DNA from: Octopus vulgaris
Lineage: Eukaryota
Assembly: GCA_951406725.2 (NCBI GenBank)
Contig: OX597842.1
Coordinates: 1,116,001-1,180,000 of the forward strand
Length of the DNA: 64,000 nt
Reading direction: 5' to 3'
Position 1 is the stretch's first letter. Every line of letters starts with the position of its first letter. Below the pieces are notes generated by a model that had not been told where the DNA came from, did not search any database, and was given only the letters and a program-made list of their open reading frames with translations. Shown one piece after another: positions 1,936-52,256 of the stretch. The position numbers were made by a program, and so were the translations under genes.

Positions 1936-2230
1936 ACGAAAAAAACAAAAGACGAAGACAGGGGGTGTACAAAACAAACAGATGTATTAGTATAACGCTC
2001 AGGAATAGAAAAAAGTCTTTTACGTTTCAAGCCTACGCTCTTCTACAGAAAGGGGCACAAAAAAAAACAAGGAGAGAAAAAAATGTGTGTAATGGCTAAT
2101 ATGTATATATGACGGGCTTCTTTCAGTTTCTGTCTACCAAATTCATTCACAATGCATTGGTCAACCCAAGGTTATAGTAGAAGACACTTGCTCAAGGTGC
2201 CATGCAGTGGGACTGAATCCAAAACCATGT
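1636..2230 (-). mobile_element. SINE family A (tRNA-headed, internal TA/CA tract, (AGAGTAAA) tail; probably the octopus OK-type SINE), interrupted at ~1932-2100; extra 3' fragments at 1270-1600
   Basis: Matches the many copies in this window (TTTCAGTCATTTGACTG...GGACTGAA). Confidence 0.85.
2017..2052 (-). ncRNA. Minimal type-I hammerhead-like motif with A6U core variant, in a Penelope-like insert (~1932-2100)
   Basis: Minus strand reads CUUU-CUGUAGA-A-GAGC(GUAG)GCUU-GAAA-CG-UA-AAAG. Confidence 0.5.
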
Positions 2231-15357: not shown

Positions 15358-15466
15358 CATATATATATATATATACACACAACAATTGTTTTCGTTTTAG
15401 CACACGATCTCAGATCAAATTACTTGCTAAGCAAGTACATCTCCGTAATATATATATATATATTTC

Positions 15467-22188: not shown

Positions 22189-22695
22189 TGAGTGAGAGAG
22201 CAGTGCATGCCATCAAAGTGACACTGGGGTGCAAATATACAAAGCCCAGTATACCCATCATGACTACCCATCTGATAAGGGTACACTAGGCACATGCATC
22301 ACAACCATATGTGCACAACATGGTGATCACATATCAAGATAAACAGCACATGACCTTGCAGGTAGGGTCCAGTTAGAATTTTCTTCTGGTCGAATAGCCC
22401 ATCCTACTCAAAAGGTCCCTGAATAAGGGTTGTTGAAGAATGTTGAACAAAACACTCATGTTTCCAGAGGTGAATTATCTAAACCCCAAAGAATCCCTCT
22501 CAACACATGGCTATGATGCTCCCCCACTACTTCTGCTCGTGATCAGAGATGCACATATCATCAGCCACTAAGGGACATGGTCAACTGGTTAAGGTCAAAC
22601 AACTGACAAGTAAATCTGTGGTATTGAGCAGAATATTTGCTGTAGCCCATCTTTTATACCAAGACACAACAATGTACATAACACTTCCATTTAGC
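22189..22695 (-). mobile_element. Retroposon 3' end with (TAA)n tail; copies at 26780-26980 and 51825-52260
   Basis: GAGTGAGAGAGCAGTGCATGCCATCAAAGTGACACTGGGGT is shared with 51825. Confidence 0.75.
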
Positions 22696-24154: not shown

Positions 24155-24350
24155 CATTTAACATCAGTTTTCCATGTGGACATGGGTTGGATGCCTTGAC
24201 AGGAACTGACAAGGCCAAGAGGCCACACCAGGTTGCATGGTATGTTTTTGACTTGGTTTCTACAGCTTGATGCCCTTCCTAATGCCAACCAATTTACAAA
24301 GTGAACTGGGTGCTTTTTACATGATACTATCACCAAGCTTTTTAAGTTGC
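24155..24350 (-). mobile_element. RTE R1 3' UTR fragment grading into the satellite
   Basis: TTTAACATCAGTTTTCCATG...GATGCCCTTCCTAATGCCAACC...GGGTGCTTTTTAC. Confidence 0.75.
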
Positions 24351-25915
24351 ACCAGCACAAGTGCCTTTTAAGTGGCACCAGCACCAGTGCTTTTTAAGTG
24401 GCACCAGCACCAGTGCCTTTTAAGTGGCACCATCACCAGTGCTTTTTAAGTGGCACCAGCACCAGTGCTTTTTAAGTGGCACCATCACCAGTGCTTTTTA
24501 AGTGGCACCATCACCAGTGCTTTTTAAGTGGCACCAGCACCAGTGCCTTTAAGTGGCACCATCACCAGTGCTTTTTAAGTGGCACCAGCACCAGTGCTTT
24601 TTAAGTGGCACCATCACCAGTGCTTTTTAAGTGGCACCATCACCAGTGCTTTTAAGTGGCACCAGCACCAGTGCCTTTTAAGTGGCACCATCACCAGTGC
24701 TTTTTAAGTGGCACCAGCACCAGTGCTTTTTAAGTGGCACCAGCACCAGTGCCTTTTAAGTGGCACCAGCACCAGTGCTTTTTAAGTGGCACCATCACCA
24801 GTGCTTTTTAAGTGGCACCAGCACCAGTGCTTTTAAGTGGCACCATCACCAGTGCTTTTTAAGTGGCACCAGCACCAGTGCCTTTTAAGTGGCACCATCA
24901 CCAGTGCTTTTAAGTGGCACCATCACCAGTGCTTTTTAAGTGGCACCAGCACCAGTGCTTTTAAGTGGCACCATCACCAGTGCTTTTTAAGTGGCACCAG
25001 CACCAGTGCCTTTTAAGTGGCACCAGCACCAGTGCTTTTTAAGTGGCACCATCACCAGTGCTTTTTAAGTGGCACCATCACCAGTGCTTTTTAAGTGGCA
25101 CCAGCACCAGTGCCTTTTAAGTGGCACCAGCACCAGTGCTTTTTAAGTGGCACCAGCACCAGTGCCTTTTAAGTGGCACCATCACCAGTGCTTTTTAAGT
25201 GGCACCAGCACCAGTGCTTTTTAAGTGGCACCATCACCAGTGCTTTTAAGTGGCACCATCACCAGTGCTTTTTAAGTGGCACCAGCACCAGTGCCTTTTA
25301 AGTGGCACCATCACCAGTGCTTTTAAGTGGCACCAGCACCAGTGCTTTTAGTGGCACCATCACCAGTGCTTTTTAAGTGGCACCATCACCAGTGCTTTTT
25401 AAGTGGCACCAGCACCAGTGCCTTTTTAAGTGGCACCATCACCAGTGCTTTTAAGTGGCACCAGCACCAGTGCTTTTTAAGTGACACCATCACCAGTGCT
25501 TTTAAGTGGCACCATCACCAGTGCCTTTTAAGTGGCACCAGCACCAGTGCCTTTTAAGTGGCACCAGCACCAGTGCTTTTAAGTGGCACCATCACCAGTG
25601 CTTTTTAGTGGCACCATCACCAGTGCTTTTAAGTGGCACCAGCACCAGTGCTTTTTAAGTGGCACCATCACCAGTGCTTTTTAAGTGGCACCAGCACCAG
25701 TGCTTTTTAAGTGGCACCAGCACCAGTGCTTTTTAAGTGGCACCAGCACCAGTGCTTTTTAAGTGGCACCAGCACCAGTGCCTTTTAAGTGGCACCAGCA
25801 CCAGTGCCTTTTAAGTGGCACCAGCACCAGTGCTTTTTAAGTGGCACCATCACCAGTGCTTTTTACGTGGCACCATTACCAGTATTCTTTATGTGGTACC
25901 AGCACCATTGTTTTT
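24350..25915. repeat. Minisatellite, 25-26 bp unit AAGTGGCACCA(G/T)CACCAGTGC(C/T)TTT(T), about 60 copies
   Basis: Seen directly. Confidence 0.97.
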
Positions 25916-25934
25916 ATGTGATCCCATCAGCTGT

Positions 25935-26510
25935 TGTTTAGCACTTGCTAAACAGCAGCAAAAGCAAATTCATGGACTTAGTGTTGAAAATTGAAGGATA
26001 CTATATCCTATGCGTTGGAAGAGGGCTCCTCATGAAGTACTCTCTCCCATGCAACCCCAAATCAGCTGGACCAGCATACCTCAAAGAAGATCTGGAAGTG
26101 AAATGCTCAGAATACCAAAACCAAGACCATGCATGGGTAGGTTTCTCATAGACTTGAAGAAGATAGTAACATTGACAGGAAGTGAAGATTGATAGATAAA
26201 TAGATAGGATGATAGATAGATAGATAGACAGACAGATAAACAGACAGGAAGTGAAGCCTTTTCTGTGACTGCTACATCACACTTCGAAGGCTATGCATTT
26301 GCAATCAAAGAACAGAAGACTGCATCTAAATACCTAATCAACAAAAGTGGCAGTGAAGCCCTTGGAGTTCCAAGATGCAACCATAAATGTAGATTATGTT
26401 ATATTTCTGTGGAAGACATTCCATATGTGATCAGCAGCTGCCCAAAAATGCCATCAAAGGATTACATCTCTATACGACCTGACATAATCGCAAAAACAAT
26501 ATACATATCA
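25935..26510 (+). mobile_element. R4/Dong-type non-LTR retrotransposon fragment (post-RT region and CCHC knuckle)
   Basis: TSHFEGYAFAIKEQ...KCRLCYISVEDIPYVISSCPKMPSKDYISIRPDIIAK. Confidence 0.75.
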
Positions 26511-26757
26511 AAAACAACTGCAGTGTGGAAGGTGTTTATAAGCCATTTATGAAACACACAAAACCGTTAGATCCACTTCAACATTTAAATTTAATTTGCC
26601 AAAATATTTTCATCGCTTTGAGGCAGCGACCTGTTCACTGACAAAATTCCATGTGGCATCTTAAATGGCTTATAAACACCTTCCACGCTGCAATTGTTTT
26701 CATTCCAGCACACAATCTCAGATCAGGTCACTTGCTATGCAAGTACATCTCCATAAT
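26511..26757. mobile_element. Penelope-like fold-back insert: arms 26511-26549 / 26662-26700 plus extension; extension also at ~15387-15450
   Basis: Inverted arms enclose a hammerhead-fold motif. Confidence 0.65.
26595..26645 (-). ncRNA. Type-I hammerhead ribozyme fold with G3-C8 swapped core
   Basis: UUUGUCA-GUGAACA-G-GUCGCU(GCCUCAA)AGCGAU-GAA-AAUAUU-U-UGGCAAA. Confidence 0.65.
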
Positions 26758-27034
26758 ATACATATCATAGCCATATATAGAGGGGAATTCTTTGGAGTTT
26801 GAATAATTCACCTTTGGAACATGAGTGTTTTGTTCAACATCCTTAAACAACCCTTATTCAGGAACCTTTTGAGTGGAATAGGCTACTCGGCCTGAAGAAA
26901 ATTCTAACTGGGCCCCACCTGTAAGGTCATGTGCTGGTTATCTTGATATGAGATCACTATGTCGTGCCTGATGTACCCTTTTGGGAAAAAGACTGTTCTG
27001 GAATGAATTATAGAGAATCCCCTTGTTACTGAAT

Positions 27035-33060: not shown

Positions 33061-33249
33061 ATACATTATTTACATTGTTTACATTATTTACAATTGACAG
33101 ATATTTGTCCTCATCTTGTTTGTTGTTAACACAACGTTTCGGCTGATATACCCTCCAGCCTTCATCAGGTGTCTTGGGGAAATTTCGAACCTGGGTTCTC
33201 ATTCCTAAAGTATTCTTCGATGTTATTATTATTATTATTATTATTACTA

Positions 33250-51805: not shown

Positions 51806-52256
51806 TATTATTACTATTATTATTGAGTGAGAGAGCAGTGCATGCCATCAAAGTGACACTGGGGTAAAATATACGAAGCCCAATATACCCATCATGACTT
51901 CCCGTCTGATAAGGGTACACCAGGCACATGCATCACAACCATATGTGCATGACATGGTGATCTCATATCAAGATACACAGCACATGACCTTGCAGGTGGA
52001 GCCCAGTTAGAATTTTCTTCAGGTTGAGTAGCCCATTCTGCTCAAAGGTCCCTGATTCAGGGTTGTTGAACGAACCACCTATGTTTCCAAAGGTGAATTA
52101 TCCAAACCTCTAAGAATTCCTCTCAACACATGGCTATGATGCTCCCCCACTACTTCTGCTCGTGATCAGAGATGCACATATCGTCAGCCACTAAGGGACA
52201 TGCTCAACTGGTTAAGGACAAACAACTGACAAACAAATCTGTGGTATTGAGCAAAA

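What the first reader, a model, noticed from the sequence alone, without database searches (positions are those of the whole stretch)
26595..26645. Natural-looking hammerhead with the C3-G8 core pair swapped to G3-C8
Seen: a 7-bp stem I (UUUGUCA/UGGCAAA), core GUGAACA in place of CUGANGA, an extra G, a 6-bp stem II, GAAA, a palindromic AAUAUU stem III and a UUU cleavage triplet. Established: positions 3 and 8 form a Watson-Crick pair in the active fold, and compensatory swaps can rescue activity. A double covariant change is unlikely from decay, and standard CUGANGA searches would miss it.
Basis: partly seen in the sequence, partly recalled or inferred. Interest (0 to 1): 0.8.

Follow-up and report, generated by a model that had tools for sequence, protein, structure and literature searches.

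The report
Swapped-core hammerhead in Penelope retrotransposon
This hammerhead-type RNA motif, whose central C-G pair is swapped to G-C, is the normal form in thousands of copies of one Penelope-type jumping gene in this animal genome; it likely cuts its own RNA slowly, and sister families carry the other three possible pairs, but cutting has not been tested.

Summary
Observation confirmed on the minus strand. The motif lies in a 246-bp foldback insertion with a 13-bp target duplication, left by a Penelope-like element (PLE) with RT plus C-terminal GIY-YIG. G3-C8 is the family state: 5,420 exact motif hits, 97 of 100 listed G3/C8, no C3/G8 form in the genome, and it is present in young copies with long intact ORFs. 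The motif sits about 60 nt after the inferred transcript start and about 55 nt before the ORF's AUG. Other PLE families here carry U3-A8, A3-U8 and C3-G8, so all four Watson-Crick pairs occur. Against strong activity: only 1 of 53 sampled arms starts at the cut site. Natural U3-A8 is published; G3-C8 appeared only as an engineered, partly active mutant in what I could read, and key papers were not held. The scan noted G3-C8 motifs behind PLE RTs in two other genomes (unchecked). Verdict: real, new variant of the PLE minimal hammerhead; cleavage untested.

The parts
26595..26645 (-). Type I minimal hammerhead-like motif with G3-C8 core (G3 26638, C8 26633, extra G 26631, GAAA 26611-26608, palindromic stem III 26608-26603); predicted cut between 26602 and 26601
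   Evidence: sequence and fold; family counts; cut site predicted from hammerhead numbering, not shown
26511..26661 (-). Sense arm of the insertion: 5' end of the PLE transcript (starts at AGATG), hammerhead, and first 12 codons of the PLE ORF, ending at the short 3' end
26544..26546 (-). Start codon of the PLE ORF (reads MAYKHLPR... straight into the RT-EN ORF in tandem copies L264 and L281)
26659..26756 (+). Inverted arm: 3' part of the same unit including the ~57-nt 'tail' (ORF codons to about +92); forms the long hairpin with the sense arm
26498..26510 (+). Left copy of a 13-bp target-site duplication
26755..26767 (+). Right copy of the 13-bp target-site duplication (first two bases overlap the element's end)
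15383..15457 (+). Second, separate fragment of the same family: tail only, no hammerhead

Best explanation
The motif is the hammerhead-type RNA element of a Penelope-like retrotransposon family whose copies carry G3-C8 instead of C3-G8, and it likely still works as a slow ribozyme that would need a partner copy or the element's protein to cut. Shown: family, position, core state, link to the ORF. Inferred: the element's mRNA starts at the fixed AG-ATG point about 60 nt upstream of the cut site; the element's RT starts inside the first ~35 or ~92 nt of the ORF and runs to that 5' end; second-strand foldback gives the inverted arm; the GIY-YIG nick in AT-rich DNA gives the 13-bp duplication. The window copy is one such short, dead-on-arrival product. 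Predicted: C8 still supplies the 2'-OH general acid and is held by pairing to G3, stem III forms only between two copies through the AAUAUU palindrome, and occasional cutting after UUU trims read-through or tandem transcripts to unit length (possibly circles) or uncaps the mRNA just before the ORF.
For: Linkage: copies extended upstream run through a ~950-nt 3' UTR into a GIY-YIG domain (Pfam PF01541 25.7 bits, cut-off 22.6), within ORFs of 839 and 1025 codons bearing a YVDD RT motif. Nearest Atlas clusters score 0.97-0.98 and include RVT_1/GIY-YIG clusters. The tandem junction pLTR-to-ORF is seen in L264, L281, L286. Core state. It holds in young copies 1.7% from their majority and in older ones at 4-5%. 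Four subfamily majorities differ at 0 of 43 core and stem positions against 5 of 64 flanking non-coding positions (one-sided Fisher p=0.07) and 5 of 9 loop II positions. Covariation between families in this genome: A3-U8 99 of 100 listed, 148 hits; U3-A8 97 of 100 listed, 500 hits; further U3-A8 and C3-G8 families; they lie on separate branches of an endonuclease tree. Precedent: in a lizard PLE hammerhead the single mutants are dead, C3G/G8C partly rescues, cleavage needs the PLE protein, and RT starts internally near the ORF start (PMC11167929). PLE minimal hammerheads have the extra base after A9, G10.1-C11.1 and a palindromic stem III (PMC4209133).
Against: No cleavage data. Only 1 of 53 arms anchored downstream of the motif starts within 3 nt of the cut site, and that one has microhomology there; 45 of 53 reach upstream of the core, so the copied RNAs were uncut. 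The palindrome can over-extend to 10 bp (AAAAUAUUUU, -3.8 against -0.2 kcal/mol for the active 6 bp), which would sequester A13, A14 and U17. The conservation test is weak: p=0.07 on flanks; the p=0.008 figure includes loop II, which I used to define the subfamilies, so it is partly circular. Engineered G3-C8 only partly restores activity. Seven of the 20 rows in the endonuclease tree had no hammerhead found. Pfam finds RVT_1 only weakly (E 0.05, below cut-off) and nothing on the whole 839-aa protein.
Confidence: 0.65

Rival explanations
1. A hammerhead descendant that no longer cuts. The fold or sequence is kept for another job at the 5' end of the PLE mRNA (protein binding, promoter or splice signal, RT stop), and G3-C8 is a relic.
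For: Copies derive from uncut RNA. Hammerhead mutants did not affect insertion of the lizard PLE in vitro, and no reads ended at its cut site (PMC11167929). The motif lies just downstream of a branch-point/polypyrimidine/AG-like or initiator-like sequence. The over-extendable palindrome disfavours the active fold.
Against: A relic would not need a double change that keeps Watson-Crick pairing. All well-formed family motifs found in this genome keep 3-8 complementary through four different states. All other catalytic positions are canonical.
Confidence: 0.22
2. An active ribozyme whose main job is translation: cutting about 55 nt before the AUG removes the cap and either starts cap-independent translation of the RT-EN protein or switches translation off.
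For: Position in the 5' UTR. Type I hammerheads in viral 5' UTRs drive cap-independent translation through self-cleavage (PMC13725137, abstract only). It would explain why cut RNA is rarely copied back to DNA.
Against: No expression or translation data here. The precedent comes from fungal and plant viruses with canonical cores.
Confidence: 0.11
3. Chance resemblance or decay of a canonical hammerhead in a single copy.
For: The window copy does carry three private changes in stem and loop II.
Against: 0 of 200 shuffled windows give such a motif; 5,420 family hits with no C3/G8 form; it lies in the pLTR where PLEs keep hammerheads.
Confidence: 0.02

Closest known systems
Minimal type I hammerheads of metazoan Penelope-like elements (Cervera and de la Pena 2014, PMC4209133; parts 1-2 of 4 read, one supplement file searched)
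   Same: In the pLTR; type I; extra base between 9 and 10.1; G10.1-C11.1; palindromic stem III; mostly solo dispersed copies; a natural U3-A8 variant reported in Schistosoma Cercyon elements
   Different: G3-C8 core, outside their descriptors; 7-bp stem I; 10-nt perfect palindrome across the junction
Anolis PAc (Poseidon) PLE hammerhead (Frangieh et al. 2024, PMC11167929; passages and first part of main text read)
   Same: Hammerhead next to the ORF start in the pLTR; two 3' ends ('tail') inside the ORF's first codons; copies made from uncut RNA
   Different: There C3G/G8C is an engineered partial rescue; here it is the wild type. There the cut is 26 nt inside the ORF; here about 55 nt before it. 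Different PLE clade.
Natural U3-A8 hammerheads (Perreault et al. 2011, PMC3088659; section 8 and passages read)
   Same: Natural covariation of the 3-8 pair
   Different: Only U3-A8 named; purine at 3 with pyrimidine at 8 (G3-C8, A3-U8) is not mentioned in what I read
C-terminal EN+ PLE clades Nematis / Neptune / Hydra (Craig et al. 2021, PMC8557442; passages, section 11, supplement term search)
   Same: RT plus C-terminal GIY-YIG, Zn-finger-like linker (Cx3CxxC), inverted and tandem pLTRs, tail, (TA)n targets
   Different: The host element falls outside the Neptune-like families of this genome on the endonuclease tree and lacks Hydra's CxCX5C linker. 'Nematis-like' is my inference from the short linker; no reference Nematis sequence was compared.

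Membership tests
Hammerhead ribozyme (type I, minimal) | Three-way junction with stems I and II and correct order of blocks | tested here: met
Hammerhead ribozyme (type I, minimal) | Literal core CUGANGA | tested here: not met
   GUGAACA in the family; 0 C3/G8 copies. It is a core variant, not a consensus member.
Hammerhead ribozyme (type I, minimal) | Watson-Crick pair possible between positions 3 and 8 | tested here: met
   G3/C8 in 159 of 175 copies; the pairing itself is inferred from the known structure
Hammerhead ribozyme (type I, minimal) | U4 G5 A6, A9, G12 A13 A14, A15.1-U16.1, H17 | tested here: met
   each kept in 164-175 of 175 copies
Hammerhead ribozyme (type I, minimal) | G10.1-C11.1 closing stem II and an extra base after A9 | tested here: met
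   family majority; the window copy has G-U by CpG decay
Hammerhead ribozyme (type I, minimal) | Stable stem III, or palindrome allowing a dimer | tested here: inconclusive
   palindrome present, but the active 6-bp duplex is marginal and a 10-bp over-extended duplex is favoured
Hammerhead ribozyme (type I, minimal) | Match to an Rfam hammerhead model | tested here: inconclusive
   no hit, but the canonical C3-G8 minimal motif in the same window is missed too
Hammerhead ribozyme (type I, minimal) | Site-specific self-cleavage | not testable with these tools
   needs an assay; genomic 5' ends show no cut-site peak
Penelope-like element (C-terminal EN+) | Single ORF with RT and C-terminal GIY-YIG | tested here: met
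   the RT match in Pfam is weak
Penelope-like element (C-terminal EN+) | pLTR in tandem and inverted arrangements, 3' tail, 5' truncation | tested here: met
Penelope-like element (C-terminal EN+) | Hammerhead motif within the pLTR | tested here: met
Nematis clade | RT groups with reference Nematis elements | not tested
Non-LTR retrozyme | Head-to-tail tandem units each with a hammerhead, no ORF | tested here: not met
   copies are solo or inverted pieces of an ORF-bearing element

The most novel reading that the evidence does not exclude
An animal retrotransposon that was active until recently uses, as wild type, the G3-C8 hammerhead core known so far only from mutagenesis, and the PLE families of one genome have sampled all four Watson-Crick pairs at 3-8 (including A3-U8) while staying catalytic. 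The swap would tune a slow, protein- or dimer-gated cut in the 5' UTR, and thousands of animal ribozymes per genome would be invisible to CUGANGA-based searches.
Probability: 0.45. Interest if true: 0.7.

Novelty: new variant of a known kind. Interest (0 to 1): 0.52.

Why it matters
The 3-8 pair is a pillar of the active hammerhead structure, and its purine-pyrimidine swap has been a laboratory control. A natural, fixed G3-C8 core in a family with intact young copies, next to natural A3-U8, U3-A8 and C3-G8 families, is an evolutionary covariation test of that pair. It gives a ready set of wild-type RNAs to ask whether PLE hammerheads must cut and how fast, which is an open question for these elements. 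It also shows that descriptor searches undercount PLE hammerheads: at least 5,420 exact motif hits in this genome, partly inflated by one amplified insertion.

Tried and rejected
Rfam: nothing at the site, and nothing at the canonical motif either, so uninformative. The pairs 2.7-2.8 kb apart that I first took for ORF-flanking pLTRs are one insertion captured in a larger amplified palindromic repeat. A GIY-YIG family search of the genome returned other (Neptune-like) families, not the parent; the parent was found by walking upstream. Coding constraint on the core from the short ATG-started frame over the motif: rejected, because the frame shifts between subfamilies. Splicing at the CTAAC/polypyrimidine/AG motif: no donor found that matches the bases seen before ATG in short copies, and no such joint in the laid contigs; left open. 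Public runs: no RNA holder listed on record. The four laid runs are contigs, two only guessed to be RNA; they cannot show starts, ends or expression. Metagenome pattern scan: 5 hits, none with stem I or the palindrome, treated as chance. PDB sequence search: no hit. The two fixed-structure energies were mis-registered by one base and are not used. Papers not held: Lunse 2017, Przybilski and Hammann 2007, Martick and Scott 2006, and two ids recalled for Hammann-lab papers.

Full report
Observation. The minus strand of 26595-26645 holds exactly the described elements: 7-bp stem I, GUGAACA, extra G, stem II, GAAA, palindrome AAUAUU and U17; RNAfold gives stems I and II. A descriptor allowing any Watson-Crick 3-8 pair finds 2 sites in the window (this one and a canonical one near 33168) and none in 200 locally shuffled windows. 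Rfam finds neither site. The piece at 15383-15457 is tail only.

Context. The motif is the loop of a long hairpin. A sense arm (26661-26511, minus strand) and an inverted arm (26659-26756) lie between 13-bp direct repeats. The genome is 2.8 Gb in 227 contigs; that it is an octopus is my guess from recalled repeat content and comes from no call. Thirty best matches share this layout with variable junctions and mostly (TA)n flanks. Inverted 5'-truncated arms, a tail at one end and microsatellite targets are the described marks of PLE insertions (PMC8557442 passages).

Is G3-C8 the family state? With N at both places there are 1,201 exact hits; of 100 listed, 95 are G3/C8, 2 G/T, 1 T/C, 1 G/G, 1 A/A. 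With a free loop and V (no T) at both places there are 5,420 hits; 97 of 100 listed are G3/C8. The C3/G8 version has 0 hits. Among 243 fetched copies, reduced to 175 after removing repeats (36 belonged to one amplified insertion and were counted once), 159 are G3/C8 and none is C3/G8. Genome counts are inflated by that amplified insertion and by copies with two arms. The family stem II is 5 bp with G10.1-C11.1; the window copy's 6-bp stem and G-U closing pair come from private changes.

The parent element. Three of 74 anchored rows extended upstream of the usual 5' end; that extension has 422 exact hits. It leads through a ~950-nt microsatellite-rich 3' UTR to a GIY-YIG domain (Pfam above cut-off). 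Open frames of 839 and 1025 codons carry DKS, YVDD, a Cx3CxxC linker and the nuclease. Atlas neighbours are RT and GIY-YIG clusters at 0.97-0.98; Pfam's RVT_1 match is weak and the whole protein had no Pfam or PDB hit. In L264 and L281 the pLTR runs straight into the ORF, whose AUG lies inside the pLTR about 55 nt after the predicted cut, so the 'tail' is the ORF's first codons. Young copies (47, mean 1.7% from their majority) have a different loop II but the same core and stems as older ones (100 at 5.1%, 12 at 4.0%, 5 at 5.0%). The four majorities differ at 0 of 43 core and stem places, 5 of 64 flanking non-coding places (p=0.07) and 5 of 9 loop places (p=0.008 with the loop, which is partly circular because the loop defined the groups). 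One stem I position varies A/G (125/46) and keeps a wobble pair.

Covariation between families. Loci from a GIY-YIG search showed other PLE families with hammerheads behind the nuclease. U3-A8: 500 hits, 97 of 100 listed, 3 U3-G8. A3-U8: 148 hits, 99 of 100 listed. Three more U3-A8 families, one with GCAA for GAAA in both copies seen, and a C3-G8 family in which two of four copies have U4C. The scans allowed any 3-8 combination; the non-complementary hits were single mutated copies or lacked stems. On an endonuclease tree of 20 rows (one further row dropped, seven without a hammerhead found) the G3-C8 family lies on a long branch apart from the Neptune-like families, which hold U-A, A-U and C-G. 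Four states imply at least three double changes, and none of the families found settled on a mismatch. The tree is short and unrooted, so I infer no order of events.

How the short copies arise, and what they say about cutting. Of 74 rows anchored downstream of the motif, 21 from the amplified insertion were dropped. Of 53 arms, 3 extend far upstream, 22 start at the AG-ATG point, 20 between it and the core, 7 inside the motif and 1 at the cut site. In the lizard PLE, RT starts at two internal sites near the ORF start, which makes the tail, and uncut RNA is the main template (PMC11167929). I infer the same here: the short copies are cDNAs of the transcript's 5' end. That end may be a start site. 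Of 27 short copies ending in AG, 12 have a G before it, where long copies have C (44) or T (7); this fits a copied cap, but at least three of the 12 are explained by the inverted arm. The upstream sequence also looks like a 3' splice site, as described for the Drosophila Penelope intron ending at helix I (PMC4209133); I found no matching donor. So most templates were uncut, and the ribozyme, if active, is slow or gated. The junction palindrome can over-extend into the core, a further brake.

Mechanism and rivals. Most likely (0.65): a slow, dimer- or protein-assisted hammerhead in which C8's 2'-OH replaces G8's (general-acid role of the position-8 2'-OH: PMC6155905 and PMC8495972 passages), processing tandem or read-through PLE RNA. 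Rivals: a non-cutting relic with another role (0.22); translation control by cutting before the AUG (0.11; viral precedent, PMC13725137 abstract); chance or decay (0.02).

Literature. Natural U3-A8 is reported (PMC3088659 section 8; PMC4209133). G3-C8 appears as an engineered variant. Eight searches showed no natural G3-C8 or A3-U8 family. Also consulted without such a report: PMC6765202 and PMC10085705 (passages) and bioRxiv 10.64898/2026.07.22.740005 (part 1 of 5). However, Lunse 2017 (a large survey of PLE hammerheads; size and content recalled), Przybilski and Hammann 2007 and Martick and Scott 2006 were not held, one supplement file of PMC4209133 was not searched, and figures cannot be seen; any of these could already list the variant. 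Two earlier notes of this scan describe G3-C8 motifs behind PLE RTs in other genomes; I did not check them and do not count them as support.

Verdict. A real, family-wide core variant of the PLE minimal hammerhead in a recently active retrotransposon; new variant of a known kind; activity unshown; interest 0.52.

Noticed in passing
window 33128-33173 (-): Canonical C3-G8 minimal type I hammerhead (CUGAUGA, extra A, GAAAC, palindrome ACGU) of another repeat family; a similar sequence flanks L008 and L015.
   Followed up: partly
L089:~2045-2085 (+) and L119-L126: PLE family with an A3-U8 core, 2-bp stem II and ACCGGU palindrome; 148 exact hits, 99 of 100 listed A3/U8. I found no natural A3-U8 in the papers searched.
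   Followed up: partly
L080, L093 and related loci L076-L095: Neptune-like PLE family with many intact 781-codon frames and a U3-A8 hammerhead; 500 exact hits.
   Followed up: partly
L084 (~2677 on the minus strand) and L090 (~2504): U3-A8 hammerhead with GCAA in place of GAAA (A13C) in both copies seen.
   Followed up: no
L109 and L110, ~550 nt after the nuclease stop: C3-G8 hammerhead with U4C in these two copies, while L072 and L117 have U4.
   Followed up: no
L060-L062 and many of L033-L059: One G3-C8 insertion is captured in a larger unit amplified many times on contig 1, arranged as multi-kb palindromes.
   Followed up: partly
L087:~26 and L124: Another short U3-A8 hammerhead-like motif (stem I UGCA/UGCA, ACAUGU palindrome) seen twice, family not identified.
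   Followed up: no
window 26764-26900, 22380-22517, 52014-52140: A different dispersed repeat starts right after the insertion and recurs twice in the window.
   Followed up: no
window 24337-25920: Tandem array of a 26-bp unit, 61.5 copies, 93% matches.
   Followed up: no
L024:2-565 and 2039-2752: A family copy lies between C2H2 zinc-finger coding stretches, probably in an intron.
   Followed up: no
L114: Distant relative of the parent element's nuclease; no hammerhead found behind it.
   Followed up: partly
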